64,000 nt of DNA from contig JAHPZA010000010.1 in assembly GCA_019058445.1 (NCBI GenBank), positions 288,001-352,000 of the forward strand. Direction: 5' to 3'. The notes beneath the pieces were generated by a model, which was not told the DNA's origin, made no database searches, and worked only from the letters and a program-made list of their open reading frames with translations. The stretch's first letter is position 1. Each line of letters begins with the position of its first letter. This DNA comes from Promethearchaeota archaeon (GTDB taxonomy: Archaea; Asgardarchaeota; Lokiarchaeia; Sigyniarchaeales; SOKP01). Shown piece by piece: positions 39,183 to 58,681 of this stretch. The position numbers were made by a program, and so were the translations under genes.

Positions 39183-41630
39183 ATGCTTAAGTTAACTTTA
39201 ACCTTTAACCGATTGTTGGACTTCATTTCAGACAAAATTGGAATGAATATTCGACATTTGTTTTCCTTTGGTTTGTCTAAATTATACTCAAATAAGGTAG
39301 ACGAAAACCTACTAGTTTTTGGGAGTACAAATGGAAATGCTTTTTCAGGAAATAGCAGAGATTTATTTCTTTACTTAACGAAAAATACTAATTATAAATG
39401 TGTATGGTTTACATCTTCAGAAAAGATTTTTAAAGATTTAAAAGAGAAAAATTATCATGTCGTCTCAAATAAAAAACTCTTTAAACCTGTAAAAATTCTT
39501 AAATCAGCTAAATATATTTTTATTACACATGGTTTTGGTGATATTTTACTTATCGACTTCTCTCCTAAAACAGAATTAATTCATCTGGATCATGGTAGCG
39601 CATTAAAATTAATTGGAAGAGGGCTTAAAGGTTCCTATTTGAATTTTTTCCAGAAAAAAGTAAATCAATATTTAAATAAATGTATTAGTTATTTAACAGT
39701 GACTTCAGAAGAAACCAAACGTACTAAAAGATTCAGCTATAATTTACCTCCCGAAAAAGTTATTATCACAGGCTATCCCAGAAATGAAATCCTTGTTAAC
39801 TATACTAATGAAATTAAAAATCAAATAAGACATAATTTAAATATAAAAAATAATCATGAAATAATTTTATATGCTCCTACTTTTCGAGAGTATAAACAAG
39901 AAAATCCTTTGAATAAGAGATTTCTAGAAGATTTAGACAATTATTTAATCAAAGAAAACAAAATATTACTATATAAGCCTCATCCTTTTGAAGAAAAAAT
40001 AGATTTGAGTAAATTTCAAAAGATAAAATCCATAGATCCAAATGTAGATATAAGTGATTTATTGGTGATTTCCGAGGTTTTAATTACTGATTATTCCGGA
40101 GTGTTTTATGATTATTTACTTACAATGAGACCAATAATCTTTTTTCCATATGATTTAGATAGATATACTGAAGGGCGAGATTTTTTCTATAATTATGAAA
40201 ATTTTGTCCCGGGGCCAATTGTAGAAAATGGAGAGGATTTAATCGAGAAATTAAAAACCATCCCAGTATGGAATCAAGATTTCTTGGAAGTAAGAAGAAG
40301 AGCACGGGATAAATTTAATAAATACAATGATGCTAATGCTACAAGGAGAATTGTCGATTTCTTCGATTTAAAATATAAAGAAATAGTAACTCCTCCAATA
40401 ACACATCCAAAGATTATATTAGAAAAACCAATAGGAATAATTAATAAAACATTCAATAGAGTTTTAGAATACATTTCAACAAAAATGGGAATGAACCTAA
40501 AACACATATTTTCCTATCTATTATCGAAATTGTATAGTGATAGTACCAATGAGAATTTACTAGTCTTCGGTAGTACGAATGGACAGGCATTTGCCGGTAA
40601 TAGTAAAGTACTCTTTGAATATCTTACCAAAAACTCATCATATCATTGTGTTTGGATAACTGCCTCAGAAAAAGTGTTTAATGATCTTAAGAAAAAAAAT
40701 TATCAAGTTGTTTTAAATAAAAATTTGATTCAAACAATCAAAATATTAAAAGCAGCAAAATTTATTTTCATCACTCATGGTTTTGGGGATATTTTCTTTA
40801 TTGATTTTTCATCAAATACGAAATTAATTCATTTAGGTCATGGTATTTCATTTAAAAAGGGTGGTCATGACTTAACAGACACTTTTATGCCTTTTACCGA
40901 AAAAATGATGAATCAAAGATTAGTTGAAAGCATGAACTTACTTATCGATTCTTCAGATGAAACAAAGAGACATAAAATGACAAGATTTGGTATAGAATCA
41001 AATAAAGTCGCTGTGACAGGATATCCTAGAAATGATATTTTAGCAAATCATACTCGAGAATTAGAATATCAAATTAAGGCGAGCTTAAATATAGAGAATT
41101 ATTCGGAAGTCATCCTTTACGCACCAACATTTAGAGATTATGAGTATCAATTTCCATTGAGAGAGGACTTTCTGAAAAAATTAGATAAATTTTTGATCGA
41201 AGAAAATAAAATATTAATTTATAAACCACATCCATTTACAGAAGATATTAACCTAAGACAATATAGAAATATAAGATCTGTCAAAAGAAATGTAGATATC
41301 AATGATTTATTAATTATTGCGGATATTTTGATAACTGATTATTCGAGTGTATTTTATGATTATTTATTGACTCTACGCCCGATAATATTTTTTGCTGATG
41401 ATTTAGAAAGATATACAGAAGTCAGAGATTTTTATTATGACTATAAAACTTTTGTGCCTGGTCCGTTAGTTTCAACGGGAGGTGAATTAATTCAAAAACT
41501 AAAAAAATTAAAAGAATGGAATTTGGAATATGTTGAAAAGAGAAAATTAATGCGCGATAAATTTAACAAATATGCTGATGGGAGGGCAACTGAAAGAATA
41601 ATTGAACTTCTTAATTTGAGTGTATACTAA
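39183..41630 (+). CDS. Tandem double-domain CDP-glycerol glycerophosphotransferase (TagF/TagB-like)
   Basis: Two copies of FGSTNG.AF.GNS, ITHGFGD, HG, TGYPRN, LYAPTFR, KPHP, ITDYS, PGP. Confidence 0.9.
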   Translation: MLKLTLTFNRLLDFISDKIGMNIRHLFSFGLSKLYSNKVDENLLVFGSTNGNAFSGNSRDLFLYLTKNTNYKCVWFTSSEKIFKDLKEKNYHVVSNKKLFKPVKILKSAKYIFITHGFGDILLIDFSPKTELIHLDHGSALKLIGRGLKGSYLNFFQKKVNQYLNKCISYLTVTSEETKRTKRFSYNLPPEKVIITGYPRNEILVNYTNEIKNQIRHNLNIKNNHEIILYAPTFREYKQENPLNKRFLEDLDNYLIKENKILLYKPHPFEEKIDLSKFQKIKSIDPNVDISDLLVISEVLITDYSGVFYDYLLTMRPIIFFPYDLDRYTEGRDFFYNYENFVPGPIVENGEDLIEKLKTIPVWNQDFLEVRRRARDKFNKYNDANATRRIVDFFDLKYKEIVTPPITHPKIILEKPIGIINKTFNRVLEYISTKMGMNLKHIFSYLLSKLYSDSTNENLLVFGSTNGQAFAGNSKVLFEYLTKNSSYHCVWITASEKVFNDLKKKNYQVVLNKNLIQTIKILKAAKFIFITHGFGDIFFIDFSSNTKLIHLGHGISFKKGGHDLTDTFMPFTEKMMNQRLVESMNLLIDSSDETKRHKMTRFGIESNKVAVTGYPRNDILANHTRELEYQIKASLNIENYSEVILYAPTFRDYEYQFPLREDFLKKLDKFLIEENKILIYKPHPFTEDINLRQYRNIRSVKRNVDINDLLIIADILITDYSSVFYDYLLTLRPIIFFADDLERYTEVRDFYYDYKTFVPGPLVSTGGELIQKLKKLKEWNLEYVEKRKLMRDKFNKYADGRATERIIELLNLSVY

Positions 41631-43614: not shown

Positions 43615-44274
43615 TTATATAAGACCTATTTTATAAATTAAATTAAAAATATTGGCTCTGAATTTAAAAATAAATCCACGTTGTTTATATAAGCGAACAC
43701 GTTTTTTAATTGAGATTTCATATTCTTTTTTTAATTTATGCTTATTTAATACACCATATCCTAAAAAAAATCCTTTAGAACATAGTTCATATTTATAATA
43801 ATACCAGGGCCTTTTTAATTTATATAAATTTAGAGTTAACTTCATAGATACTAAATCATGAATATGATCTCTTTCATTGAAAAATGGAACGTCTGCGAAA
43901 AAAAACGTCTCATTTTTATAAATTACATCATGCACTTCAAGGTGACTATGAGAAAACCCTTTTTCATGAAAGATTCTTAATTTTTTTCCAAATTCATAAT
44001 ATACTTTTGGATCTAAAATATCAACCAACTTTTTACCATCAATGTATCTGCTAACAATAAATTGTTTGTTTTTTGAAAAATAGATTGGCTCTATAAGTTG
44101 GAAATTATCAACTTCTAATTTATTCCAATATCTTTTTAGGTAATTAAATTCCTTTTCCATCCATTCTTCTTTTCCTTTACAAACTTTAATGAAATAATTT
44201 TTATCTGCTGTGATATAATAGCTATTGGTTCCTCCGAACAAAGATCTCTTGATTTTTTTTAATGAACTCTTCAT
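43615..44274 (-). CDS. Protein-kinase-fold (Kdo/WaaP/RIO/APH-like) protein with an atypical catalytic loop
   Basis: YFIK, EKEF, RYIDG, G..L..FH..G and HSHLEVHD in place of HxDxxxxN; ADVP in place of DFG. Confidence 0.6.
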   Translation of the reverse strand: MKSSLKKIKRSLFGGTNSYYITADKNYFIKVCKGKEEWMEKEFNYLKRYWNKLEVDNFQLIEPIYFSKNKQFIVSRYIDGKKLVDILDPKVYYEFGKKLRIFHEKGFSHSHLEVHDVIYKNETFFFADVPFFNERDHIHDLVSMKLTLNLYKLKRPWYYYKYELCSKGFFLGYGVLNKHKLKKEYEISIKKRVRLYKQRGFIFKFRANIFNLIYKIGLI

Positions 44275-44414: not shown

Positions 44415-44975
44415 TCAAATTAGTTCATAATCATGCCAAAATTTCCAATAATAATTTATAATAAGACCATCTTTAATTACTGGTTTTTTACGAGGATTTT
44501 TGGTATAATCATAAATCCATTTGATTCCATATTTCTTGGCAAGTTCTATAGTATAATCATTGTATTGCCGCCATCCGGGAGCGCATTTTGTTGGATTAAT
44601 TCCCAACGAATTCAAAAACTTCATCGATTCTTCAAATTTTTCATCCTGAAGTTTATTATCAAAAAATGCCGGAACATTACATAAATGGATATGTAACTGT
44701 ATTTCTTCATTGTATTTTTTTAAAATTTCAATTCTTTTAGCTAAAATGTGGGTGAATTGAGCTTTATCTTGTTTTATATTGAAATAGCTCTTACAATATT
44801 CATAATTAGCAGGAGTTACAACAAACCATATATAACCCTTTCCAAGTAAATTTTGAAGTTTTTTCCACATGTCATCTCTTACTAGAGCTTCAGCATGAAG
44901 TGTTTTTTCTTTAACTTTTGCGAATTTCCGTAAAATCTTGAACATAAATTCGTCTAAAGATTTTTTTAATTTCAT
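44415..44975 (-). CDS. Short NodB/DUF2334-like carbohydrate esterase-fold protein
   Basis: WFVVTP, EIQLHIH, APGW, WHDY. Confidence 0.55.
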   Translation of the reverse strand: MKLKKSLDEFMFKILRKFAKVKEKTLHAEALVRDDMWKKLQNLLGKGYIWFVVTPANYEYCKSYFNIKQDKAQFTHILAKRIEILKKYNEEIQLHIHLCNVPAFFDNKLQDEKFEESMKFLNSLGINPTKCAPGWRQYNDYTIELAKKYGIKWIYDYTKNPRKKPVIKDGLIINYYWKFWHDYELI

Positions 44976-45534
44976 AGCCGGGAAAATATTCTTTAATTTA
45001 ATATGTCTAGTAATATTTGAGTTATTAAGTTAATTATATTTTAACCAAATAAAGAGATCCACTTCTCTTTAGGAAGTACTCAAATAAAAATTAACATTAA
45101 CCAAGTTTAATCTGCTTTAAATTACCTTAAATTTTTTTTAACCTTGTATATGCTTAAAATTCCATAGTTTTTGACGAAGAAAATTTGTTAGTTAAACGGA
45201 CTTTTCTAAAAGGATGAAATTGAAGATTCTAAGCCAAATATTATGTAAAATTAAAATAACTGGAATTGTAAGAATTTTAAGAATAAATCCGGATTTTTTC
45301 TTCTATTAAAGAAATTAATCTATTGATATTTAATCACTCCATAGGACATTTAAAAGTATGATATAAGATTTTAGAATTAATTTAACAAGGTCTATTCGAT
45401 AAACTCAAATTATTTCAGAATGTAAATTAGATAGAAATTGATAAGAATGAAATACTAATCAGATCTAAAGAAAATATTTATCCTAAAAGAAAAGTTAAAG
45501 AAAAATATAATTAAACAAAATAAATAGAATATCA

Positions 45535-46773
45535 ATGATAACAAAATTTTTTGAAAAAATTTTATCCAAAGTTAAGTTCTATACAATAGCAAGGCTCTTA
45601 AGAATCCATCCACATTTCTTTTTTGACCTCGTGGTATATCACTTTTCAAAATTTTTTAGAGGAAATGTAGATGACAAGTTGATTATTTTAGGTGGTAATT
45701 ATGCCAAATATTTTGGAGGAAATACAAAATATCTTTATATATATTTAAAAGAAAACACAGATTATCAATTATTTTGGATGTCTAAATCTCTGGAGTTAAA
45801 CAAGAAATTAGAAAAACAAGGAATTAAAACTATATACGCATATACTTTAAAAGCAATCAAAATGTTGAGAAGAGCTCGAGCTGTTTTTGTTACGCATGGA
45901 ACTATTGATGTTCTTCCTATAAAATTCTCCCCAAGAACCGTACATGTTCAAACTTGGCATGGAGGAGATATTAAAATTATAGGCAATAATCCTTATGCTG
46001 CAAAATATATTTATTCTAAATGGGCAAAATTATTAAGATTAAAACTTCGAGATCATGAGTATGTTGATTTTCTCGTATCACAATCAAGAGCAAAAAGACC
46101 ATTAGAGATCTTATCAGAAGCATTTAGATATCCTTTAGAAAGGATAATACCTACTGGATATCCCAGAAATGATATATTTTTTTCTAAGGAAAAAGATTTA
46201 AAAGTTAAATTAAGAATGAAATATAATATTCCAAGTTACATAAATAAAATTCTCTTATATGCACCTACATTTCGACCAGATTTTGAAGCTAAATTTCCGC
46301 TTAATAATGAAAATTTAGTTAAATTAAATCAATATTTATTAGAAACGAAATATCTATTTTTAATGAAAGGGCATATCAAGGAGAGAACTATTTCATTTAA
46401 AGATTTAGAGAATATAAAGACTATAGGATTAGAAGCAGATACTCAAGAATTATTATATATCACGGATATCTTAATTACTGATTATTCCTCGATATACTGT
46501 GATTTTTTATTACTAAATCGACCAGTCCTTTTATTTACCTATGATTATAAAAAATATGAAAAAGAGCGAGGATTTTATTATGATCATTTAGAAGAAATTG
46601 CTCCTGGACCATTAATTTATACGGGAGAAGAATTAATTAATACTATCAAAAATATTCAAGTTTTAGAGAAACAATACGAATCAAAACGATTAGAATTAAG
46701 AGATTATTTTAATGCATACAATGATGGAAAATCTTCAGAAAGATTGTTAAGATTTCTTAAATTAATAGAATAA
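45535..46773 (+). CDS. TagF-like CDP-alcohol/CMP-phosphonate phosphotransferase
   Basis: FGGNTK, VTHG, QTWHG, TGYPRND, LYAPTFR, ITDYSS, PGP. Confidence 0.9.
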   Translation: MITKFFEKILSKVKFYTIARLLRIHPHFFFDLVVYHFSKFFRGNVDDKLIILGGNYAKYFGGNTKYLYIYLKENTDYQLFWMSKSLELNKKLEKQGIKTIYAYTLKAIKMLRRARAVFVTHGTIDVLPIKFSPRTVHVQTWHGGDIKIIGNNPYAAKYIYSKWAKLLRLKLRDHEYVDFLVSQSRAKRPLEILSEAFRYPLERIIPTGYPRNDIFFSKEKDLKVKLRMKYNIPSYINKILLYAPTFRPDFEAKFPLNNENLVKLNQYLLETKYLFLMKGHIKERTISFKDLENIKTIGLEADTQELLYITDILITDYSSIYCDFLLLNRPVLLFTYDYKKYEKERGFYYDHLEEIAPGPLIYTGEELINTIKNIQVLEKQYESKRLELRDYFNAYNDGKSSERLLRFLKLIE

Positions 46774-47198
46774 TTTATTTTAATTATAATGTGACATTAG
46801 TATATTAAAATGCTAAGGTCTACGATTCATCCTATTGTAAAGGAACTTTTGATCTGTAAAGTAACCGATAATTAATTGAAAGATTATCGTGGCAAGAGAA
46901 TTAAAGGCAAATATCAAACCTGTTTGAAACCAATTTAAGTTAAATTCAAAATACAAACTTGCTATTCATACAGGCAAAACAAATGTTATAGGATCATTAT
47001 TAAAATAATAAACATATAACCTCTTTTGAATGTAAGAACTCTTTTCTTTAGGATTATTCAACAATATTTTAAGTATTTCATTTAATAAAAAAATCTTCTA
47101 TTACCTGAAAATAAGATTTTAATAATGAAAGTTAAAACGTTCTAAATATAATTTATAAGCCTGCTTTTTTAGGCTTGAGAATTAAAAGAGAACAAATT

Positions 47199-47206
47199 TT
47201 TATATA
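47199..47206 (+). promoter_or_regulatory. Candidate archaeal TATA box for pepM
   Basis: TTTATATA 26-33 nt upstream of the TTG start at 47232, with a small hairpin AAGCCT-N8-AGGCTT at 47157-47176; weak evidence in such AT-rich DNA. Confidence 0.3.
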
Positions 47207-47231
47207 ACATGAAAATTTCTTATAATATGAT

Positions 47232-48926
47232 TTGACGCTTAAGAATAGAATTTCTCCAGAAAAAAGAAGAAAAAAATTAAAAGAATTATTAATTAGAAAA
47301 AATCCCCTACGATTTTTAGAAGCTCATGATGGAATTAGCGCGATAATTTCAAATAATACTAAAATTACAATAAATAATGGAGAAGTTCTTGAATTTGATG
47401 GACTTTGGGAAAGTAGTTTTACCGATAGCGCATCAAAAGGATATCCAGATGCTGATATTATAAGTTTTGATTCTAGATGTGAATCATTGAAATACATTTT
47501 AGATGCTACCAATAAGCCAATAATTTTTGATGGGGATACTGGAGGAGATCCTACTAATTTCGAATATCAAGTTAAGCGCTTAGAAGATCTGGGAGTATCA
47601 ATGATTATTATAGAAGACAAAGTTTATCCTAAACGAAATAGTTTAGATGAGACCGCTTCTCAGATACAAGAGGATCCTCAGATTTTTGCAATTAAATTAA
47701 AACGGGGTAAAGAAGCATTACACTCAGATGGCTTAATGATTGCTGCAAGAATTGAAAGCTTAATAACAGGGTCTGGATTAAAAGATGCCCTTTTAAGAGC
47801 CAAAATATATTTAAATGCGGGGGCAGATGCTATCATGATTCATTCAAAAGAAGAGGATCCGAAGGAAATTTTTGAATTTGCTAAAGAATATAATGAATTA
47901 TCTAAAAACATCAGTTTTCGAAAACCATTAATATGCGTTCCTACAACATATAATACTGTTACAGTAGACGAATTTGAAAAAGCAGGATTTAATATTATAA
48001 TCTATGCGAATCATCTAATAAGAGCTTCATTTAAAGCAATGAAAAAAGCTGCTGAACTAATTTTAAGAAATGGAAGAAGCTTTGAGGTTGAATCGATATG
48101 CACTCCAGTTAAAAAAATTTTTTCAGTAGTAGGATTTGAAGAGATCAAAAAGAAAGATAAAAAATTTCAAAAGGCACAAAGAGTTATTATACCCGCTGCT
48201 GGGTTTGATAATAATTTTGATATTCCTAAAGCAATGATAAAAATTAAAGGAAAACCAATTATTAAAAGGCAAATTGAGGTTTTAAAGAAATTTGGTTTTG
48301 CAAAAATAACAGTAATTAGAGGATGGAAGAAAGAGTTAGTAACTTTGGAGGGTATTAAATATTTCGATAATGATTTTTATGATAAAACTTACATAGCTCA
48401 TTCTTTATTTCATGCAGAGGAAGATTTTAAAAATGGATTCTTATACATTAATTCTGATATCCTTTTTACCGAAGAAGTCATCAATAAAATCATAAACACA
48501 CCATATGATATTGTATTAGCTGTAGATAGAACTTACCAATACCATAAACACGAAATTGATAAAAAACTTGATATGGTTTTAACTAAAAACAAACCTACAA
48601 ATCGAATTTGGAAATTAGGAAGGGAAGAAAATGAAGTTATAAGAATCGGTAAAAATATCAAGATTGAAATGGCTGATTATGAATATATCGGAATTGCTAA
48701 TTTCTCTGAGAATGGAGCAGAGATTTTAAGAAAAGTATATCATGATTGTAAAATGAATTGGCAAGGCAAATTTCATGAAGCTGATGATTTTTCTAAAGCT
48801 GATTTTATGGATTTAATACAAGAAATAATTAATCGAGGTTTTAAAGTAAATATTGTTGAGATTCATCAGGGTTGGATCGAAATTAATGATGAAAGGGACG
48901 TAAAATTAGCAGAAATGATGATTTAA
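47232..48926 (+). CDS. pepM: Phosphoenolpyruvate mutase fused to a C-terminal nucleotidyltransferase domain
   Basis: Diagnostic EDKxxxxxNS motif (IEDKVYPKRNS), DGDTGG, ARIESL, IYANH; C-terminal IIPAAG...PKAM, SDILF, WIEI. Confidence 0.96.
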   Translation: MTLKNRISPEKRRKKLKELLIRKNPLRFLEAHDGISAIISNNTKITINNGEVLEFDGLWESSFTDSASKGYPDADIISFDSRCESLKYILDATNKPIIFDGDTGGDPTNFEYQVKRLEDLGVSMIIIEDKVYPKRNSLDETASQIQEDPQIFAIKLKRGKEALHSDGLMIAARIESLITGSGLKDALLRAKIYLNAGADAIMIHSKEEDPKEIFEFAKEYNELSKNISFRKPLICVPTTYNTVTVDEFEKAGFNIIIYANHLIRASFKAMKKAAELILRNGRSFEVESICTPVKKIFSVVGFEEIKKKDKKFQKAQRVIIPAAGFDNNFDIPKAMIKIKGKPIIKRQIEVLKKFGFAKITVIRGWKKELVTLEGIKYFDNDFYDKTYIAHSLFHAEEDFKNGFLYINSDILFTEEVINKIINTPYDIVLAVDRTYQYHKHEIDKKLDMVLTKNKPTNRIWKLGREENEVIRIGKNIKIEMADYEYIGIANFSENGAEILRKVYHDCKMNWQGKFHEADDFSKADFMDLIQEIINRGFKVNIVEIHQGWIEINDERDVKLAEMMI

Positions 48927-48928
48927 TT

Positions 48929-50065
48929 ATGATATCTTGCCAAGAATTTTTTACTATTTTAAAAGAAAAGGGATTTACTTTTTTTACAGGAATCCCTGAT
49001 TCGACTTTTAAACATTTTATAAAATTTATATCAGATAATAATGGAGAATTATTACAAAATATCGTTGCTTCTAATGAGTGTGAATCTATAGCAATAAGCG
49101 CTGGATATTATTTAGCGACAAGTAAGATAGGTGTTGTTTATATGCAAAATTCTGGTCTTGGTAAAACCGTCAATCCTTTAACTTCTTTGTGCGATCCTGA
49201 AATATATGCAATTCCGATATTACTTCTTATAGGTTGGCGTGGAGAACCTGGGAAAATTGATGCTCCTCAACATAGAAAAATGGGCAGAATTATGCTATCA
49301 TTATTAGATACTCTTGAAATACCATATAGTATACTTAAACCAGAAATAGAGGATATTAGATTAAACCTTAATTCTGCTATTAAATATTTCAATAAAATGA
49401 AAGGTCCCTACGCTTTTATTATCAAAAGAAATTTTTTTAAAGACTATAAATCGAATAATAAAGAAATCGTTAGTTATGAGCTTTCTCGTCAGCAAGCAAT
49501 AGATTTAATAATGGATAATCTTAACGAAAATAATATAGTAATTTCAACAACCGGATTTACTTCACGAGAGGTATATGAATATAGAGAAAAAACGAAAAAG
49601 GCCCATAACAGAAGTTTTTATAATATCGGAAGTATGGGGTGTGCTTCTTCAATTGGATTAACCATAGCTCTGCATAATTCAAATAAAAAAATATTCATTT
49701 TTGATGGAGATGGAGCCGCTATAATGCAAATGGGAGCTTTTACCACAATAGGTAAAAACTCTCCAAAAAATTTTATACATATAGTATTTGATAATCATAT
49801 GCATGAAACAACAGGAGGACAGCCTACTAATTCTAGTTCAGTTGATTTTGTTAAATTAGCTTTTGCTTGTAACTATAAATATGGTAAAGTTGTTATAACT
49901 AAAAATGAGCTGATTGAAACGATTTCAGATATTAAAAATAGAGACGGACCGATAATTATTGTTATTAAGGTAAAACCAAGTTTTAATGCTGAGCTAAAGA
50001 GACCTGAGAAAGAGCCAAAATATTATAAAGAAATTTTTCAAAATTATCTAATTAATTCAAAATGA
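48929..50065 (+). CDS. aepY: Phosphonopyruvate decarboxylase
   Basis: FFTGIPDS, YMQNSGLG, GWRGEPG, GSMGCASS, TPP motif DGDGA...N, TGGQPT; directly follows pepM. Confidence 0.95.
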   Translation: MISCQEFFTILKEKGFTFFTGIPDSTFKHFIKFISDNNGELLQNIVASNECESIAISAGYYLATSKIGVVYMQNSGLGKTVNPLTSLCDPEIYAIPILLLIGWRGEPGKIDAPQHRKMGRIMLSLLDTLEIPYSILKPEIEDIRLNLNSAIKYFNKMKGPYAFIIKRNFFKDYKSNNKEIVSYELSRQQAIDLIMDNLNENNIVISTTGFTSREVYEYREKTKKAHNRSFYNIGSMGCASSIGLTIALHNSNKKIFIFDGDGAAIMQMGAFTTIGKNSPKNFIHIVFDNHMHETTGGQPTNSSSVDFVKLAFACNYKYGKVVITKNELIETISDIKNRDGPIIIVIKVKPSFNAELKRPEKEPKYYKEIFQNYLINSK

Positions 50066-50805
50066 AAGCTGTAATATTAGCTGCTGGAATGGGTACGCGT
50101 CTTAAACCATTGACGGATGATATGCCAAAATCCTTTTTAAATATAGATGGTAAACCTTTAATCATTAGATCACTCGATAATTTAAACCAAGTAGGAATTC
50201 AAGACGTTATAATTGTAATAGGGTATTTACAAAATTTTTTTAAAAAGAACATAGGAAGTTATTATAAAAATCTAAAAATAACATTTGTATTTAATCCCTA
50301 TTATTCATATACCGGAAGTATGTATTCTCTATCTCAAACTGAGGGGATTGTAGATAATGATATACTTTTACTAGAGGGAGATTTACTGTATGAAAAAAGA
50401 GCTTTGGAATATTTAATTGATTCAATTGAACCAAATGAGATATTGATTGCTCCACTTAGTGGCTCGGGGGATGAGGTTTATATTTGTGTTAATGAACATA
50501 ATGAACTTATTAATTTAGGAAAAAATATTGTTAATAAATCTGAAGCGATAGGTGAATTGGTTGGAATATCTAAGCTTTCAATGGATTTCCTTCCTAAACT
50601 CTATCAGAAAGCTAAAGAAGATTATAATAATAAAGAATGCTTATATCACTACGAAGAAGTTATTTTTAAAGTATCTAAATCTTATCCTATTAAATGTAAG
50701 TTAATTTCGGATTTAAATTGGATAGAAATTGATAATGATAATGACCTGCGCAGAGCTATTGAATTAGTATATCCAAAAATAAAAAATAAAGAAAACACTA
50801 TATAG
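50062..50805 (+). CDS. Phosphonate/phosphocholine cytidylyltransferase (PntC/LicC-like)
   Basis: ILAAGMGTRL, TGSMYSL, LLEGDL, GELVGISK, WIEID; ATGA-coupled to ppd. Confidence 0.88.
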   Translation: MKAVILAAGMGTRLKPLTDDMPKSFLNIDGKPLIIRSLDNLNQVGIQDVIIVIGYLQNFFKKNIGSYYKNLKITFVFNPYYSYTGSMYSLSQTEGIVDNDILLLEGDLLYEKRALEYLIDSIEPNEILIAPLSGSGDEVYICVNEHNELINLGKNIVNKSEAIGELVGISKLSMDFLPKLYQKAKEDYNNKECLYHYEEVIFKVSKSYPIKCKLISDLNWIEIDNDNDLRRAIELVYPKIKNKENTI

Positions 50806-51001
50806 ATAAGTTCTTGATTTGATTAAAGTACTCCTTGTCTTTTAATTTTTTAGGAGAAGATTTTTTTCATATGAAAGAATAATATCAAAGAATTAGATAA
50901 GAATTATCCTTTTAAAAAACAATGGAATTAAAAGATTATTAAAATAATTAAAGGAAGATGAAGAATCATAACAAAGAAATTATAGTAAAATAATAATAAT
51001 T

Positions 51002-52117
51002 TTGATCAAAATGACAAGAAGAAATATACTATTAAATCCTGGTCCAGCAACTACGACTGATTCAGTGAAGAAAGCATTAATTGTTCCCGATATATGTCCA
51101 AGAGAAAAAGAATTTGGGGATTTGATGCAAGAAATAAGAAAAGACCTTGTTGAGATTGCTGGAGGTGATAAAAATTATACATCTGTGTTATTTGCTGGAT
51201 CTGGAACTGCCGTAATGGAAAGTACCATTAGTTCAGTTGTACCTCCAAACAAAAAAATTCTAATTTTAATTAATGGTGCTTATGGAATTCGTTTTGCAGA
51301 GATTGCACGAACATATAATATCGAAGTTGTCGAGCTTAATTTTGAATTTGGGAAAAGAATTGAATTAAAGCAAATAGAGTCTATTTTAAGGGCTGATGAA
51401 GAAATTGCGTGTGTGGCTGTTATCCATCATGAAACTACAGTGGGAATTTTAAATCCCATAAAAGAGATCGGAGAAATCACAAAAGCTTATCGAAAAACCT
51501 TTATAGTTGACACTATCTCTAGTTTTGCTGGGGTTCCTATTAATATAAAGGACTTTAATATTGACTTCATGATGTCTACCTCAAATAAATGTATCCAAGG
51601 AATGGCCGGAGTGGCTTTTATTATCTGTAAAAAATCTGCTTTGGAAAAGTTAAGATCATTTAAAGCAAGGAATTATTATCTCGATCTATTTAAGCAATAT
51701 GAATATCTTGAGAAAAATAATCAAACAAGATTTACCCCACCTGTACAGATTATATATGCTCTTAAACAAGCAATTTTAGAATTATATGAGGAAGGTGTGG
51801 AAAATAGAATTAATAGATATAAGGAAAATTATCGAATTTTGAAAGATGGGTTGAAGAAGTTGAATTTTAAATTTTTGATGAAAGTTGATGTAGAAGAATC
51901 TAACATTTTGACTACAATTCATTATTTAGATCATCCTAATTTTAATTTTGATATTTTACATGATAAATTATATAAGAAAGGATTTACAATTTATCCCGGT
52001 AAAATTACTGATCTTAATACTTTCAGAATTGCGGTTATGGGAGCAATTTACCCTGCTGATATTAAAAATTTCATAAAGACTCTAGGAAATGTTTTAAAGG
52101 AAATGGGCATAAATTAG
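51002..52117 (+). CDS. phnW: 2-aminoethylphosphonate aminotransferase (PhnW/AepZ); likely start ATG 51011
   Basis: LLNPGPATT, GSGTAVME, HHETTVG, DTISSF, STSNKCIQG, RFTPP, IYPGK. Confidence 0.93.
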   Translation: MIKMTRRNILLNPGPATTTDSVKKALIVPDICPREKEFGDLMQEIRKDLVEIAGGDKNYTSVLFAGSGTAVMESTISSVVPPNKKILILINGAYGIRFAEIARTYNIEVVELNFEFGKRIELKQIESILRADEEIACVAVIHHETTVGILNPIKEIGEITKAYRKTFIVDTISSFAGVPINIKDFNIDFMMSTSNKCIQGMAGVAFIICKKSALEKLRSFKARNYYLDLFKQYEYLEKNNQTRFTPPVQIIYALKQAILELYEEGVENRINRYKENYRILKDGLKKLNFKFLMKVDVEESNILTTIHYLDHPNFNFDILHDKLYKKGFTIYPGKITDLNTFRIAVMGAIYPADIKNFIKTLGNVLKEMGIN

Positions 52118-52170
52118 ACAAAAAAAAATCTTATTTATTATTCATTAAAAAACTTAAAAGATCGATAAAA

Positions 52171-53406
52171 ATGCTTCAAAGAATTTTAAATAAAATGTTA
52201 ATGCATGTTAAGATTTTCAAATTAGCAAAAGTTTTAAAAATTAACCCTCGATTTTTTTTCGATTTAATAATATTTCATCTTTCTAAGTTATTTAGAGGAA
52301 ATGTAGATGATAAATTGATTGTTCTGGGGGGGGCAAGCGGGAAAGCATTTATGGGCAATACTAAATACTTGTATTATTATTTAAGAGATAATACAGATTA
52401 TAAAATACTTTACTATGTAAAATCTTATGAATTAAAACAAAAGTTAGAGAGGAATGGAATAAACACTATTTACGCATATAGTTTGGAAGCAATTAAAATT
52501 TTAAGAAAAGCGAGAGCTGTTTTTGTAACTCATGGCTATATTGATGTACTTCCTATAAAATTTTCATCTAGAACTATATTTGTTCAAACATGGCATGGAG
52601 CAGATATTAAAATTCTAAATTCCTCTCCCTATTTTAATAAGTATATCTATTCTAAATGGACAAAAATATTTAGATTAAAACTTCGAAATCATGAATTATA
52701 TGATTATGTTTTAAATCCTTCAGGAGAGAAAAAACCATTACAAATTTTATCTAATGCATTTAAATATCCAATTGAAAGAATTATTACAACAGGTTATCCA
52801 AGAAATGATATTTTTTTTTCAAAAGATCCCTACTTATCCCAGAAACTAAAAAAAAAATATGGAATTTCGAACAGTATCAAGACCATAGTATTATATGCAC
52901 CAACTTTTAGAGAGAAATTTTCTACAAAAAATCCCTTTTCTATGGAAGCTCAACATAAATTAAACGAGTTAGGTAAAAAATTAAAAACGATTTTTTTAAT
53001 GAAAACACATATAAGCGAAAGTCTGATTAAAATAGAAGAATCATCAAATATTAAATCAATCAGGAAAGATGATGACATCCAAGAGCTTTTATTTATTACT
53101 GATTTATTGATAACAGATTATTCGTCAGTATTTTGCGACTTTTTATTATTAAATAGACCGATTATATTATATGTTTATGATTATGAAGAATATATCAATA
53201 ACCGCGGAATTTATTATGATTCATTAGAAGACATAACTCCGGGACCAATTTTTTATTCTTCAGAAGACTTGTTAAATGCTATTGAAAATATTGAGGAATA
53301 TTATCAAAAATATGAATCAAAGCATGAAAAAATAAAAAAATATTTTAATAAATATAAGGATGGAAAATCTTCAGAAAGATTATTAAGGTTTTTAAAGCTA
53401 ATTTGA
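52171..53406 (+). CDS. TagF-like phosphotransferase, close paralog of 45535..46773
   Basis: VTHG, QTWHG, TGYPRND, LYAPTFR, ITDYSS. Confidence 0.9.
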   Translation: MLQRILNKMLMHVKIFKLAKVLKINPRFFFDLIIFHLSKLFRGNVDDKLIVLGGASGKAFMGNTKYLYYYLRDNTDYKILYYVKSYELKQKLERNGINTIYAYSLEAIKILRKARAVFVTHGYIDVLPIKFSSRTIFVQTWHGADIKILNSSPYFNKYIYSKWTKIFRLKLRNHELYDYVLNPSGEKKPLQILSNAFKYPIERIITTGYPRNDIFFSKDPYLSQKLKKKYGISNSIKTIVLYAPTFREKFSTKNPFSMEAQHKLNELGKKLKTIFLMKTHISESLIKIEESSNIKSIRKDDDIQELLFITDLLITDYSSVFCDFLLLNRPIILYVYDYEEYINNRGIYYDSLEDITPGPIFYSSEDLLNAIENIEEYYQKYESKHEKIKKYFNKYKDGKSSERLLRFLKLI

Positions 53407-53518: not shown

Positions 53519-54658
53519 GTGCAGTTTATCAAAAATTTTATTAAGAGTTTCTGTAATATTTTCAATAGAAATATTTACCGGGGATTTACATTAATTAAAA
53601 GATTAACAGGTCGTAAATTCAACGCTGAGTTTTATGCTGATAAAATTACGATGAGGATTAATAGATTATTGCGAAATGAGTATATTCCAAATCCAAAAGA
53701 ACATTTATATGTGGAAGTTACAAATATATGTAATTTAAGATGCAGATTTTGTGCGTATAGCAAAGCTATTAATAAAAAAGTAATAATGTCTAATGAAATG
53801 TTTTATAATATAATAAATAATGCAACTAATTTTGGATATGACAAATTTGGATTAACTCCTATTACGGGTGAAGTTTTTATTGATAAAAATTTCATTAAAA
53901 AATTAAAATTTTTAGAAGACCATCCAAAAGTTAAAAGCTATAGCTTTTTTTCAAATTTTACACTTGCTGATGCAGAAATTATTAATTTTTTAATTAACGC
54001 GAAAAAGTTAAATGAATTATATATTAGTCTTTATGGACATGATTATGAATCATTTTCAAAATTTACGGGGGGGAATAAAAAAACATACCAAAAGCTATTA
54101 TCTAATCTAAGATATTTATGTGAACATAGCAATAACATACTTTTTAATCTAAGCTTTGGATTGAGAACATACATCTCTTTTGAGTCATTAACAAAATGCA
54201 ATAGTGATTTATGCCATACTGTCAAAGCAATTTTAAAAAATCCAAAAAGTAAAATCACAATAAATAAAGCCTATTATAATTGGGGCGGTTATATTACACA
54301 AAATGATGTAAAAGGGCTTGATATCATCATTAATGATCCTTCCAATTACTATAAATATGGTGCGTGTTCTTTAATTTTCTATAAAAATCAAGTTATGGCA
54401 GACGGCAGAGTTAACGCATGTGCTTGTAGAGATGTAAATGCTACCCTTCAGATTGGTGATTTAAAAAGACAAACTTTTGAAGAAATATATACATCTCAAA
54501 ATGTCAAGTATAGTAACATTGTTAAAAGCCACCAAAAGGGTGATTTCAATCCAGTATGCCAAAGCTGTGACTTTTACAGAAGTATCTATAAGAATTATAG
54601 AGTTTATAGGAAATATAAAAAAAACCCATTTACACTCAAAAAATTCTTCCAGAAGTAA
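53519..54658 (+). CDS. Radical SAM enzyme with SPASM/Twitch domain
   Basis: CNLRCRFC motif; C-terminal GACS...DGRVNACACRD...CQSC. Confidence 0.9.
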   Translation: MQFIKNFIKSFCNIFNRNIYRGFTLIKRLTGRKFNAEFYADKITMRINRLLRNEYIPNPKEHLYVEVTNICNLRCRFCAYSKAINKKVIMSNEMFYNIINNATNFGYDKFGLTPITGEVFIDKNFIKKLKFLEDHPKVKSYSFFSNFTLADAEIINFLINAKKLNELYISLYGHDYESFSKFTGGNKKTYQKLLSNLRYLCEHSNNILFNLSFGLRTYISFESLTKCNSDLCHTVKAILKNPKSKITINKAYYNWGGYITQNDVKGLDIIINDPSNYYKYGACSLIFYKNQVMADGRVNACACRDVNATLQIGDLKRQTFEEIYTSQNVKYSNIVKSHQKGDFNPVCQSCDFYRSIYKNYRVYRKYKKNPFTLKKFFQK

Positions 54659-56787: not shown

Positions 56788-57711
56788 TCAAATTTTTGAG
56801 AGTTCTATAAAAATATCACCCAAAGTAGGTTCTACTTCTTGAATTTTCGTAATAGGATAAGTAGATAGAAGATGTAAAAGATCTGGATAATTATTTTTTG
56901 AATTCATATGAATAATACCCCCACGCTTCTCATCAAGAAATTCAATTATATAATCCAATGTGCTCAATTCTTGTTTTAATTTATTCAAATGCTCAAGAGG
57001 TAACTCTATACGAATATAAATAGTTTCCCTCATGAGTTTTTGAAAGTTTTCTTGAGTATCTACTTTTATAACATTTCCCTTATTTAAAAATGCCACACGA
57101 TCGCATACTTGTTGTATTACATGCATTTGGTGTGAGGTAATTAAAATCGTTTGATTTAAATCTAATAAAATATCAATCATTTGCTTAATTGTATTAGGAT
57201 CCAATCCCAACAAAGGTTCATCCAAAAATAAAATCTCAGGTTCAATTAACAAAACTCTACATAACGCTAACTTTAATTTCATTCCCCGAGAATACTTCTC
57301 AACATATTCTTCCAACCAATTTTCTATACCAAAAATAGTTGCAAGTTCTACAATTTTTTTATTAAAATTCTTAATGTTATAGATTCTAGCAAAAAATTTT
57401 AGATTATCCTTACCTGTCAATCTATAGTATATTATTTCGTGACCTAACATCAAACCTAATTTGTTTTTAATCTTATTTGCCTGTTTTAATACATTATAAC
57501 CTAAAATTTCAGCGTAACCGCTCGTCGGTTGTAATAGGGTTGTTAATATTTCTACTAAAGTTGTTTTACCTGCACCATTCGGTCCTAATAAACCAAAAAT
57601 CTCTCCCTCTTTAATCGAAATATTAACCTTATTCAGAGCTTGAACATATCCTCCTTTTTTCAACTTATATTTCTTCGATAGATCAAAAGTTTGAATTGCG
57701 AAGTCACTCAT
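56788..57711 (-). CDS. ABC-2/DrrA-type exporter ATP-binding protein
   Basis: Walker A GPNGAGKT, signature YSRGM, Walker B LFLDEP, TSH; C-terminal EPTLGDIF. Confidence 0.95.
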   Translation of the reverse strand: MSDFAIQTFDLSKKYKLKKGGYVQALNKVNISIKEGEIFGLLGPNGAGKTTLVEILTTLLQPTSGYAEILGYNVLKQANKIKNKLGLMLGHEIIYYRLTGKDNLKFFARIYNIKNFNKKIVELATIFGIENWLEEYVEKYSRGMKLKLALCRVLLIEPEILFLDEPLLGLDPNTIKQMIDILLDLNQTILITSHQMHVIQQVCDRVAFLNKGNVIKVDTQENFQKLMRETIYIRIELPLEHLNKLKQELSTLDYIIEFLDEKRGGIIHMNSKNNYPDLLHLLSTYPITKIQEVEPTLGDIFIELSKI

Positions 57712-57712
57712 T

Positions 57713-58567
57713 TTAATACCCCGTTATACCATATCGATTATAAATTCTCTCAAATGAACATAGAGCTATTATAGGAATTCCAATCGCCATCGTAAATAAC
57801 ACAAAATAATGTTGCCAAGAAATATATTTATACGCGTCAATTGGATCAATTCCCGCCCACCAGCTTAATTTTAATAGATCGAAAATATAATAAAAAGGAT
57901 TTAGTCTTATAAAAAATTGTAATATCCTTGGAAACAGTTTCAATGGATAGGTAACACAACTTAACCAAGATATAAATTTAGCTGAATACGATAATAAATT
58001 TGAGATATCTTCATTAACTATGTCAATAACACCAATAAGAACACCAATTCCCATGAATATAATAATAATCGCTAAAAATATTGAGCAAAAGTGTAGTAAA
58101 GAAATTAAAGGAATTGGAAATAATATATAACAAATCATAATAAAGATCGCTACTGTGGGGATAATGATAATCAATTCAGTTATCAATAACCCAACAATTA
58201 AATTGAATCTATTAAAGGGGGCTATTATTAATCCTTTTAAAGTTTGCCATATTTTTTCCCTTCGGAATGTTTCTTTATATAAGTCTAATATTCCAAACAT
58301 ATAATTTATACAATAAGCTATTAAGAGAAATAGCAAGAAATTATATTCGGTATAATAATCAAAGTAAAAAGCTTCAGAAAGAGAAAATATTTTTGCTAAA
58401 ATAATATAAGGAATGAAAATACTTACTAACGGTTTGATATATCGAAGTGCAAACTTGAATCCATATCTTAAATGTAATTTAAGCTCTTTTTCAGAAATAG
58501 CTAAAATTTGTTTAATATTAAGTTTAAGATCATTAGCTTTAAACATCACTATCAAGAAGAATGTCAA
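57713..58567 (-). CDS. ABC-2 type permease
   Basis: About 6 TM helices, EK.WQTL...AP, YP...FP...NPFYY, C-terminal YGITGY. Confidence 0.85.
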   Translation of the reverse strand: MTFFLIVMFKANDLKLNIKQILAISEKELKLHLRYGFKFALRYIKPLVSIFIPYIILAKIFSLSEAFYFDYYTEYNFLLFLLIAYCINYMFGILDLYKETFRREKIWQTLKGLIIAPFNRFNLIVGLLITELIIIIPTVAIFIMICYILFPIPLISLLHFCSIFLAIIIIFMGIGVLIGVIDIVNEDISNLLSYSAKFISWLSCVTYPLKLFPRILQFFIRLNPFYYIFDLLKLSWWAGIDPIDAYKYISWQHYFVLFTMAIGIPIIALCSFERIYNRYGITGY

Positions 58568-58681
58568 ATTTTATATAAACTTTAGGAAATCTGCAGAATT
58601 TCATACATGTTAGAACTCCTCTCTAAAAATTACTATTATATGAAAAAATTTTTAAACTTTAAAACATTTTAATGAAAAAGA

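What the first reader, a model, noticed from the sequence alone, without database searches (positions are those of the whole stretch)
45535..53406. Complete aminoethylphosphonate pathway bracketed by TagF-like transferases: a teichoic-acid-like phosphonoglycan system
Seen: pepM (EDKVYPKRNS), ppd, a PntC/LicC-like cytidylyltransferase and an AEP transaminase in one orientation, with a TagF-family gene on each side. No TagD-type glycerol-3-phosphate cytidylyltransferase is in the window. Known: PepM > Ppd > AEP transaminase makes 2-AEP; PntC enzymes make CMP-AEP; TagF-family enzymes transfer alcohol-phosphates from CDP donors. Inference: these TagF-like proteins are the AEP-to-glycan transferases, giving C-P-decorated, phosphatase-resistant surface glycans. 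In an Asgard archaeon this would be a notable source of sediment phosphonates.
Basis: partly seen in the sequence, partly recalled or inferred. Interest (0 to 1): 0.82.

Follow-up and report, generated by a model that had tools for sequence, protein, structure and literature searches.

The report
Asgard aminoethylphosphonate cassette with TagF-type transferase
A Loki-type Asgard archaeon from sediment carries all the genes to make and activate the carbon-phosphorus compound 2-aminoethylphosphonate inside a large surface-sugar gene island, and comparison with relatives points to a teichoic-acid-type enzyme that travels with these genes as the still-unidentified enzyme that attaches the phosphonate to the cell surface.

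Summary
PepM (EDKVYPKRNS motif), Ppd and the AEP transaminase all score above their curated cut-offs. The 247-aa nucleotidyltransferase is a full-length homologue of the characterised CMP-AEP synthase Tde1415 and keeps both amine-contacting glutamates. A PF04464 (TagF-family) gene lies on each side, and the genome has no TagD.

- a degenerate NTase-like domain fused to PepM
- a third, double-domain TagF gene
- an IPCT-like cytidylyltransferase that could supply a different donor

The host is an Asgard archaeon (six actin homologues; homologues are named Promethearchaeota).

The two TagF paralogs are not equivalent.
- TagF-A (45535-46773) is 81-82% identical to TagFs that sit inside the operon, between pntC and the transaminase, on other contigs. 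That is more conserved than the phosphonate genes themselves, so it is cassette-borne and the best candidate CMP-AEP:glycan transferase.
- TagF-B resembles a resident island TagF that also occurs in relatives lacking PepM.

'No TagD' carries little weight: 3 of 135 family genomes have TagD, while 40 have TagF. AEP has no hydroxyl, so it can only cap a chain, not polymerise.

PepM occurs in 42 of 400 Asgard genomes, mostly as a hydroxyethylphosphonate-type operon. This scan has already noted AEP-plus-TagF pairs in about 21 bacterial genomes.

The parts
45535..46773 (+). TagF-A: cassette-borne TagF-family (PF04464) phosphotransferase, and the best candidate CMP-AEP:glycan aminoethylphosphonyl transferase
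   Evidence: PF04464 247 bits. Both catalytic His of S. epidermidis TagF are kept. It is 81-82% identical to the in-operon TagFs P0008 and P0020. It sits in a 100%-supported subclade whose four members with known context are all AEP-linked.
47232..48926 (+). PEP mutase (PepM/Ppm) fused to a C-terminal NTase-like domain whose nucleotide-binding loop is degenerate
   Evidence: TIGR02320 336.5 bits, above the cut-off. EDKVYPKRNS motif present. The fused domain lacks the G-x-G-T-R-L loop in G000 and all 13 related fusions aligned, whereas stand-alone homologues keep it.
48929..50065 (+). Phosphonopyruvate decarboxylase (Ppd)
   Evidence: TIGR03297 416.7 bits against a cut-off of 312.5. It overlaps the next gene by 4 bases.
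50062..50805 (+). PntC-type CTP:AEP cytidylyltransferase (makes CMP-AEP)
   Evidence: PDB 6pd1 (Tde1415 PntC domain), E 1e-37, residues 2-244 against 4-242. The counterparts of Glu104 and Glu196, which contact the AEP amine, are conserved.
51002..52117 (+). 2-aminoethylphosphonate:pyruvate aminotransferase (AEPT)
   Evidence: TIGR03301 437.3 bits against a cut-off of 360.8.
52171..53406 (+). TagF-B: resident-type TagF-family phosphotransferase of the glycan island. It may be a second AEP transferase, or a transferase for another CDP-activated head group.
   Evidence: PF04464 246.9 bits. It is 55-62% identical to all other clade members, including those in loci without PepM. Its closest relative with known context, P0006, is paired with an NTase fused to a CobD-like decarboxylase.
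45214..45309 (+). Remnant of a TagF N-terminus, a scar of rearrangement
   Evidence: A 31-aa ORF that resembles the first ~30 residues of TagF-A and TagF-B, including the INP-FFF motif.
39183..41630 (+). Double-domain TagF (two complete PF04464 domains), a probable CDP-alcohol phosphotransferase or polymerase of the island
   Evidence: PF04464 525 bits in two stretches. Conserved in G171 and G173 with the IPCT-like NTase nearby and without PepM.
24013..24798 (-). IPCT-like cytidylyltransferase, a candidate supplier of a non-phosphonate CDP-alcohol donor
   Evidence: NF041135 (IPCT half) 108 bits; PDB 4jd0 and 2xme. It lies next to TagF genes in G150, G155, G171, G173, G174, G241 and G266.
43615..44274 (-). 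Bud32/RIO-like kinase-fold protein, possibly a head-group kinase
   Evidence: Weak TIGR03724 match, 31.7 bits. Conserved beside TagF, GT4 and the NTase in G150, G171, P0024 and P0037 loci.
44415..44975 (-). Conserved 186-aa protein of unknown family that accompanies the TagF/radical-SAM pair
   Evidence: No Pfam or NCBIfam match. Orthologues are present in G173, G174, L099, L100, L101, L102 and L104.
53519..54658 (+). Radical SAM/SPASM enzyme, a conserved neighbour of the resident TagF whether or not PepM is present
   Evidence: PF04055 and PF13186. Orthologues are present in G173, G174, L099-L104. No PDB relative by sequence.
56788..59509 (.). ABC-2 type exporter: ATPase 56788-57711 (-), permeases 57713-58567 (-) and 58682-59509 (+)
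   Evidence: PF00005 and PF01061. The same trio flanks the cassette in G174, L098, L100 and L101.

Best explanation
This is a phosphonyl-tailoring (Pnt-type) cassette set in a surface-glycan island of more than 50 kb in a Promethearchaeota (Loki-type Asgard) archaeon.

The pathway runs as follows:
1. PepM converts PEP to phosphonopyruvate.
2. Ppd pulls the reaction forward to phosphonoacetaldehyde.
3. The class-V aminotransferase makes 2-AEP.
4. The Tde1415-like PntC condenses AEP with CTP to give CMP-AEP.

These four steps are shown by family membership. The remaining steps are inferred:
5. A TagF-family GT-B phosphotransferase attacks the phosphonyl phosphorus of CMP-AEP with a sugar hydroxyl of a lipid-linked glycan on the cytoplasmic face and releases CMP. 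This is the same chemistry that TagF performs on CDP-glycerol.
6. The decorated glycan is exported by the neighbouring ABC-2 transporter.

TagF-A is the cassette's own transferase. TagF-B is the island's resident paralog and may add a second AEP or a different head group. Because AEP has no hydroxyl, it acts as a terminal cap, not as a polymer unit. The NTase-like domain fused to PepM has lost its nucleotide-binding loop and is probably not the activating enzyme.
For: Pathway enzymes:
- PepM, Ppd and AEPT all score above their curated equivalog cut-offs.
- PntC matches PDB 6pd1 at E 1e-37 and keeps both amine-binding Glu residues.

TagF placement relative to the operon:
- On three independent metagenomic contigs the TagF gene lies between pntC and the transaminase.
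- On a fourth contig it overlaps the transaminase stop codon by 4 bases.
- TagF-A is 81-82% identical to the in-operon copies. PepM is 74%, Ppd 60-63%, PntC 69-73%, AEPT 77-80% and the island flanks 57-67% identical. TagF-A therefore travels with the cassette.

Natural cassette swap in a sister genus:
- The flanking genes are 86-96% identical.
- [PepM, Fe-ADH, NTase, Ppd plus TagF] is replaced by [NTase, organophosphate antiporter plus TagF].
- The two TagFs are only 56-57% identical.

Recurrence and exclusivity:
- PepM-adjacent TagFs fall in at least four separate clades.
- In seven genomes the PepM-adjacent TagF is the only TagF in the genome.
- The genome has no LicD. None of the island ORFs I scanned between 14 and 64 kb belongs to another head-group phosphotransferase family.
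- Both catalytic His residues are kept.

Precedent for a TagF-like enzyme moving a non-alditol head group: C. difficile CD0244 (PMC10714395).
Against: - No TagF-family enzyme has been shown biochemically to accept a CMP-phosphonate. I found no paper that links the two.
- Members of the same TagF clade persist in loci, and in one 98%-complete genome (G173), without any PepM.
- The island has a second plausible donor line: the IPCT-like NTase and a kinase-fold protein.
- Many relatives have PepM operons but no TagF at all, for example G176, G210, G220, G234 and G138. Another transferase, or another fate for the phosphonate, must therefore exist.
- I found no sequence signature that separates phosphonate-linked TagFs from the others.
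- The acceptor is unknown.
Confidence: 0.6

Rival explanations
1. The TagF-family proteins, including TagF-A and TagF-B, all use a conventional CDP-alcohol made by the IPCT-like cytidylyltransferase (24013-24798), for example CDP-inositol or CDP-glycerol. They build or prime a phosphodiester-linked glycan. AEP is attached by an unrecognised enzyme, or it merely shares the island.
For: - The IPCT-like NTase lies next to TagF genes in many relatives that lack PepM.
- The sister clades of TagF-A/B are adjacent to this NTase.
- G173, P0024 and P0033 keep the TagF without phosphonate genes.
- One relative, G208, pairs a related TagF with a true TagD.
Against: - This does not explain why TagF sits between pntC and the transaminase in three loci.
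- It does not explain why TagF-A is more conserved with the cassette than the flanks are.
- It does not explain why TagF is exchanged together with the donor cassette.
- No other candidate transferase family is present in the island.
Confidence: 0.25
2. CMP-AEP feeds a phosphonolipid (an archaeol-based analogue of ciliate and Bacteroides phosphonolipids) or a soluble or secreted phosphonate, and is not used for a glycan.
For: - CMP-AEP is the donor for phosphonolipids in eukaryotes (established knowledge, recalled from memory).
- HEP-type operons of the two closed relatives G138 and G143 are not next to glycan genes.
- Some operons sit beside an organophosphate antiporter.
Against: - Here the cassette is embedded among GT4/GT2/GT9 glycosyltransferases, sulfotransferases, a flippase-like protein and ABC-2 exporters.
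- No CDP-alcohol phosphatidyltransferase was seen among the island ORFs I scanned.
Confidence: 0.1
3. The genes are catabolic or inactive: the transaminase works in the degradative direction, or the cassette is a decaying acquisition.
For: - The TIGR03301 family covers both biosynthetic and catabolic AEP transaminases.
- Rearrangement scars are present.
Against: - PepM and Ppd are biosynthetic and intact.
- All the reading frames are open, and Ppd/PntC overlap by 4 bases.
- The cassette is conserved at 60-82% identity across several contigs.
- I did not search for phosphonatase or C-P lyase genes.
Confidence: 0.04

Closest known systems
Phosphonyl tailoring (Pnt) pathway of Treponema denticola, Atopobium rimae and Olsenella uli (Rice et al. 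2019, PMC6697681)
   Same: Both have PepM, Ppd, AEPT and a LicC-like cytidylyltransferase that makes CMP-AEP. The PntC here is a full-length homologue of Tde1415 with the same amine-binding Glu residues. PepM is fused to an NTP_transf_3-type domain, as in about a third of bacterial Ppm proteins.
   Different: The host is an Asgard archaeon. PntC is not fused to the transaminase. The PepM-fused NTase-like domain is C-terminal and lacks the nucleotide-binding loop. The neighbouring candidate transferase is TagF-family, not LicD-like; that paper does not mention TagF.
TagF / TarF / TarL CDP-glycerol or CDP-ribitol phosphotransferases (S. epidermidis TagF, PDB 3l7i; TarL 8va1; Cps3D 8qoy)
   Same: Same Pfam family and the GT-B-type catalytic domain. 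Both catalytic histidines and the GYPRND, YAPTFR and TDYSS motifs are kept. Release of CMP from a cytidine-activated donor is the expected chemistry.
   Different: Scores are far below the equivalog cut-offs (158-164 bits against 550 for TarF). The genome has no TagD. The proteins are single-domain and about 410 aa long. The predicted donor is a CMP-phosphonate that cannot be polymerised.
C. difficile flagellin type A glycan system, CD0242 (cytidylyltransferase) and CD0244 (TagF-like) (PMC10714395)
   Same: In both, a small amino-bearing phospho head group is activated by a LicC/CCT-like NTase and is proposed to be moved onto a sugar by a TagF-like enzyme. CD0244 is genetically required.
   Different: The head group there is phosphothreonine with a P-O-C bond, the target is flagellin GlcNAc, and the host is bacterial. 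CD0244 has not been shown biochemically either.
LicC / LicD phosphocholine decoration of pneumococcal teichoic acids
   Same: The logic is the same: activate the head group with CTP, then transfer it to a glycan. Two paralogous transferases (LicD1 and LicD2) act on two acceptor positions, which is a possible analogy for TagF-A and TagF-B (recalled from memory).
   Different: The transferase family differs, and no LicD is present in this genome.
Methylphosphonate cluster of the archaeon Nitrosopumilus maritimus (recalled from memory; not re-read here)
   Same: It is an archaeal PepM/Ppd-based pathway whose product is thought to be esterified to an exopolysaccharide, and it has a nucleotidyltransferase nearby.
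   Different: It uses the HEP to methylphosphonate branch (MpnS), belongs to a different phylum, and has no TagF association that I know of.

Membership tests
PEP mutase (PepM/Ppm) | EDKxxxxxNS catalytic motif | tested here: met
   EDKVYPKRNS is present in the translation. The motif definition comes from PMC6697681.
PEP mutase (PepM/Ppm) | Score above the TIGR02320 equivalog cut-off | tested here: met
   336.5 bits against 319.55.
Phosphonopyruvate decarboxylase | Score above the TIGR03297 cut-off, with both TPP domains | tested here: met
   416.7 bits against 312.5; PF02776 and PF02775 both match.
AEP transaminase (PhnW/AepZ) | Score above the TIGR03301 cut-off | tested here: met
   437.3 bits against 360.8.
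PntC (CTP:AEP cytidylyltransferase) | Full-length homology to a characterised PntC | tested here: met
   6pd1_A, E 1e-37, residues 2-244 against 4-242.
PntC (CTP:AEP cytidylyltransferase) | Glu residues that contact the AEP amine (Tde Glu104 and Glu196) | tested here: met
   Both align to Glu in the window protein (residues named).
PntC (CTP:AEP cytidylyltransferase) | Preference for AEP over phosphocholine or phosphoethanolamine | not testable with these tools
   Needs an enzyme assay.
TagF family (PF04464) | Pfam gathering score | tested here: met
   247 bits each against 22.1.
TagF family (PF04464) | Catalytic His444 and His584 of S. epidermidis TagF | tested here: met
   QTWHG and MK(G/T)H align to both His residues. 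3l7m is the His584 variant of 3l7i.
Teichoic-acid TarF/TarL/TarB orthologues | NCBIfam equivalog cut-offs | tested here: not met
   158-164 bits against 550 (TarF), 101-110 against 1000 (TarL), 67-69 against 500 (TarB).
Wall-teichoic-acid-type system | TagD supplying CDP-glycerol | tested here: not met
   Best TIGR01518 score in the genome is 35 bits against 165.4. TagD is present in only 3 of 135 family genomes.
Wall-teichoic-acid-type system | ABC-2 exporter (TagGH-like) | tested here: met
   PF00005 and PF01061 genes at 56788-59509. Orthology to TagGH was not tested.
Wall-teichoic-acid-type system | A polymerisable donor, meaning a free hydroxyl on the transferred unit | tested here: not met
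   AEP has no hydroxyl (chemistry). Only the separate IPCT-like NTase line could supply a polymerisable alcohol phosphate.
Asgard (Promethearchaeota) origin | Eukaryote-like signature proteins and named homologues | tested here: met
   Six PF00022 actin matches of up to 441 bits. TagF homologues are named Promethearchaeota, Lokiarchaeota or Hodarchaeota by NCBI. No 16S rRNA gene was found.

The most novel reading that the evidence does not exclude
TagF-family enzymes are the long-missing phosphonyl transferases of the Pnt pathway. TagF-A uses CMP-AEP to cap surface glycans of Asgard archaea. In the more common hydroxyethylphosphonate-type relatives, where the donor keeps a free hydroxyl, the adjacent TagF could even polymerise CMP-HEP into a teichoic-acid-like chain made of C-P units. 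About a tenth of Asgard species would then carry phosphatase-resistant C-P surface polymers and would contribute to the sediment phosphonate pool.
Probability: 0.35. Interest if true: 0.8.

Novelty: new variant of a known kind. Interest (0 to 1): 0.6.

Why it matters
The enzyme that moves AEP from CMP-AEP onto cell-surface glycans has not been identified; Rice et al. 2019 call the later Pnt steps enigmatic. This locus and its relatives offer a concrete candidate that can be expressed: TagF-A and its in-operon orthologues. The support from natural cassette swaps is unusually clean.

The survey also shows that true PepM genes are common in Asgard archaea. They occur in 42 of 400 species-level genomes, and in 31 of 135 in this family. 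A RefSeq inventory reported 1.6% for archaea (PMC8942020). Two closed genomes carry PepM, so phosphonates may be a regular part of Asgard surface or phosphorus biology in anoxic sediments. I found no paper describing this. The prediction is testable by 31P NMR on existing enrichments or cultures.

Tried and rejected
- Genome-collection scan with the PepM fusion. It returned only Clostridia and Selenomonadales PepMs at 42-48% identity. These told me nothing about taxonomy or synteny.
- 16S rRNA search in the own genome: no gene found. I inferred taxonomy from actins and from named homologues instead.
- Search for a sequence signature of phosphonate-linked TagFs.
  - The motif columns show no consistent difference.
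  - Only five positions separate cassette-type from resident-type TagFs. P0037 follows none of the five. I make no claim about specificity determinants.
- The 'recent duplication' idea for TagF-A and TagF-B is rejected. They are 60% identical in protein and 75-79% in DNA only in the core, and they belong to different sublineages.
- Radical SAM/SPASM protein against PDB sequences: no match. Its role stays open.
- Rfam scan of the window at gathering thresholds: no RNA family found.
- Sequencing-run search: seven sediment-metagenome holders and no RNA holder listed. I obtained no expression evidence and did not lay reads.
- Neighbours of the HEP operons in the two closed relatives. They include a methyltransferase, PLP enzymes, LRR and MFS proteins, but no obvious transferase.
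- Literature searches for AEP+TagF, phosphonate+glycerophosphotransferase+PEP mutase, phosphonate+Asgard+pepM, and phosphonate+Lokiarchaeota. Nothing relevant turned up.
- I did not run structure prediction or complex prediction. No protein-protein claim is made, and CMP-AEP is not an available ligand.

Full report
**What is there**

The window is G000:C10:288001-352000, from a 4.6-Mb, 10-contig genome that is 92.6% complete and has about 27% G+C. Six co-oriented genes occupy 45535-53406.

| Gene | Coordinates | Evidence |
|---|---|---|
| TagF-like A | 45535-46773, 412 aa | PF04464, 247 bits |
| PepM | 47232-48926 | TIGR02320 336.5 bits, cut-off 319.55; EDKVYPKRNS motif |
| Ppd | 48929-50065 | TIGR03297 416.7 bits, cut-off 312.5 |
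| NTase (PntC) | 50062-50805, 247 aa | PDB 6pd1, E 1e-37 |
| AEP transaminase | 51002-52117 | TIGR03301 437.3 bits, cut-off 360.8 |
| TagF-like B | 52171-53406, 411 aa | PF04464, 246.9 bits |

The NTase aligns over its whole length with the PntC domain of T. denticola Tde1415. It keeps the counterparts of Glu104 and Glu196, which Rice et al. found to contact the AEP amine. Ppd and PntC overlap by 4 bases.

1. PepM carries a C-terminal NTP_transf_3-like domain.
   - In G000 and all 13 related fusions I aligned, this domain lacks the G-x-G-T-R-L nucleotide-binding loop. It reads IIPAAG....F, then a five-residue deletion, then PK.
   - Its stand-alone homologues keep AAGPSTRLRP.
   - I infer that the fused domain is not the activating enzyme. 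That would explain why a separate NTase is always present.
2. A third TagF gene with two complete catalytic domains lies at 39183-41630. All four PF04464 domains of the genome are in this window.
3. A third NTase at 24013-24798 resembles CTP:inositol-1-phosphate cytidylyltransferases (NF041135 108 bits; PDB 4jd0 and 2xme).
   - This NTase and a Bud32/RIO-like kinase-fold protein (43615-44274) recur next to TagF genes in relatives without any phosphonate genes.
   - The island therefore has a second, Kennedy-like donor line.
4. The surroundings, from at least 14 to 63 kb, form one large glycan island. It holds:
   - GT4, GT2 and GT9 glycosyltransferases
   - three sulfotransferases
   - a DegT aminotransferase and WbqC
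   - epimerases/dehydratases and deacetylases
   - a flippase-like protein
   - an ABC-2 exporter

**Taxonomy**

- The genome has six actin-family matches of up to 441 bits.
- Close TagF homologues are labelled Promethearchaeota, Lokiarchaeota, Hodarchaeota or Hermodarchaeota by NCBI.
- Other agents' notes on this genome call it Loki-type Asgard.
- The DNA occurs in sediment metagenomes.

The Asgard assignment holds.

**Phosphonates across Asgard genomes**

PepM scores above its cut-off in 42 of 400 species-level genomes of the phylum, and in 31 of 135 genomes of the window's family, counting G000.

Most of these operons are not AEP-type.
- In this family they read PepM-NTase-like fusion, Fe-ADH, NTase, Ppd.
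- In other families PepM carries an N-terminal CTP_transf_like domain instead.
- Fe-dependent alcohol dehydrogenases reduce phosphonoacetaldehyde in known pathways (recalled from memory). I therefore read these operons as hydroxyethylphosphonate (HEP) type.
- Among the fetched genome loci, only the window's genus (G000, G174) shows the Tde1415-like PntC plus transaminase; the related metagenomic contigs L099-L101 and L104 show them too.
- Two single-contig genomes of the same order (G138 and G143) carry the HEP type.

**Are the TagF-likes the AEP transferases?**

Evidence for:

1. Placement relative to the operon, in relatives of the window's TagF clade.
   - The TagF gene lies between pntC and the transaminase on three contigs (L099, L101, L104).
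   - On a fourth contig (L100) it overlaps the end of the transaminase gene by 4 bases.
2. TagF-A is more conserved with the in-operon copies than any other gene compared.

| Gene compared | Identity to the L099/L101 counterpart |
|---|---|
| TagF-A | 81-82% |
| AEPT | 77-80% |
| PepM | 74% |
| PntC | 69-73% |
| Ppd | 60-63% |
| Island flanks | 57-67% |

   TagF-A is therefore part of the mobile phosphonate cassette. It falls in a 100%-supported subclade whose four members with known context are all AEP-linked.
3. A natural swap in a sister genus.
   - G263 and G259/G237 are syntenic, and their flanks are 86-96% identical.
   - Between the flanks, [Ppd, NTase, Fe-ADH, PepM plus TagF] is replaced by [NTase, organophosphate:phosphate antiporter-like MFS plus TagF].
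   - The two TagFs are only 56-57% identical.
   - TagF is exchanged together with its donor supply.
4. Recurrence.
   - PepM-adjacent TagFs fall in at least four separate clades.
   - Twelve of the 42 PepM genomes have a TagF within 10 kb.
   - In seven of those twelve it is the only TagF in the genome.
5. No competing transferase family.
   - The genome has no LicD.
   - No other head-group phosphotransferase family was seen in the island.
6. Both catalytic histidines of S. epidermidis TagF are kept.
7. A TagF-like enzyme (C. difficile CD0244) is genetically required for adding phosphothreonine to GlcNAc.
8. The closest relative of TagF-B with known context (P0006) sits beside an NTase fused to a CobD-like phospho-amino-acid decarboxylase. 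This suggests that the clade handles small aminoalkyl-phosph(on)ate head groups.

Evidence against:

1. The same clade includes TagFs in loci without phosphonate genes (G173, P0024, P0033). G173 is 98% complete and has no PepM.
2. TagF-B is 55-62% identical to everything else in the clade, as those resident copies are. Its link to AEP is therefore weaker. However, the L100 locus has only a resident-type TagF next to the operon.
3. 'No TagD' is the rule, not a clue. Only 3 of 135 family genomes have TagD, while 40 have TagF.
4. Many PepM genomes have no TagF at all.
5. No biochemical precedent for a CMP-phosphonate donor was found.
6. No specificity signature emerged.

**Mechanism**

The cytosolic cassette makes CMP-AEP. 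TagF-A, and possibly TagF-B, transfers the aminoethylphosphonyl group to a sugar hydroxyl of a lipid-linked glycan and releases CMP. The ABC-2 transporter exports the product.

AEP lacks a hydroxyl, so it is a cap or side decoration, not a repeat unit. Any teichoic-acid-like chain would have to come from the double TagF and the IPCT-like donor line.

I put 0.6 on this reading overall: about 0.9 for the AEP and CMP-AEP part, about 0.65 for TagF-A as the transferase, and about 0.35-0.4 for TagF-B.

**History of the locus**

TagF-A and TagF-B are direct repeats 6636 bp apart, 75-79% identical in DNA only in their cores. A 31-codon remnant of a TagF N-terminus lies at 45214-45309.

Taken with the in-operon position in relatives, this suggests two events. 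The cassette integrated beside the resident TagF/186-aa protein/radical-SAM module, and its own TagF was later moved upstream of pepM.

**Novelty**

- The Pnt pathway is known in bacteria (PMC6697681).
- PepM is known in a few archaea (PMC8942020).
- Phosphonate clusters in archaeal MAGs from cold seeps have been counted (PMC11051675).
- I found no paper on phosphonates in Asgard archaea and none on TagF-type phosphonyl transferases.
- This scan has already noted AEP-plus-TagF pairs in about 21 bacterial genomes, so the pairing itself is not unique to this window.
- New here are the archaeal host, the split into cassette-borne and resident TagF lineages, and the cassette-swap evidence.

I rate it a new variant of a known kind, with interest 0.6.

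Noticed in passing
window:47232-48926 (residues ~315-564) and 13 related fusions in L039-L078: The NTase-like domain fused to the C-terminus of PepM has a conserved five-residue deletion that removes the G-x-G-T-R-L nucleotide-binding loop. Stand-alone homologues keep the loop. The 'fused nucleotidyltransferase' may be catalytically dead or repurposed.
   Followed up: partly
window:45214-45309 (+): A 31-codon ORF resembles the N-terminus of TagF-A and TagF-B. It looks like a leftover of a rearrangement or duplication just upstream of TagF-A.
   Followed up: partly
L043 (G263) versus L074 (G237) and L080 (G259): This is a clean cassette swap at one chromosomal site. The HEP-type phosphonate operon plus its TagF is replaced by an NTase, a PgtP/UhpC/GlpT-like organophosphate antiporter and a different TagF. 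The flanks are 86-96% identical.
   Followed up: yes
L040-L047, L056, L057, L073, L078 (family relatives); L048 (G143), L049 (G138): Most Asgard PepM operons carry an Fe-dependent alcohol dehydrogenase instead of the transaminase, which makes them the predicted hydroxyethylphosphonate type. Two closed genomes have this type, with an N-terminal CTP_transf_like domain on PepM.
   Followed up: partly
window:24013-24798 (-), 43615-44274 (-), 39183-41630 (+): An IPCT-like cytidylyltransferase, a Bud32/RIO-like kinase-fold protein and a double-domain TagF recur together in relatives that lack PepM. This looks like a second, non-phosphonate Kennedy-type donor-plus-polymerase line. Its alcohol is unknown.
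   Followed up: partly
L069:6924-7328 (G208); also G213 and G217: True TagD (TIGR01518 178-190 bits) exists in only 3 of 135 genomes of this Asgard family. In G208 it lies directly beside a TagF, so canonical CDP-glycerol use is the exception in this family.
   Followed up: yes
L098:7652-9454 (-): A 600-aa fusion of an NTase with a CobD-like threonine-phosphate-decarboxylase-type PLP domain is encoded divergently from a TagF that is 62% identical to TagF-B. It may be a route to a CDP-aminoalcohol.
   Followed up: partly
window:53519-54658 (+) and 44415-44975 (-): A radical SAM/SPASM enzyme and a 186-aa protein of no known family accompany the resident TagF in every related locus, with or without phosphonate genes. 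Their function is unknown.
   Followed up: partly
window:24969-25859 (+), 35582-36508 (-), 60667-61602 (-): The island holds three sulfotransferase-family genes, so the glycans are probably sulfated as well.
   Followed up: no
G000:C8:59528-60310 (outside the window): A second PepM/isocitrate-lyase-superfamily gene scores 142 bits, well below the PepM cut-off. It is probably a methylisocitrate-lyase-like enzyme and not a second PepM.
   Followed up: no
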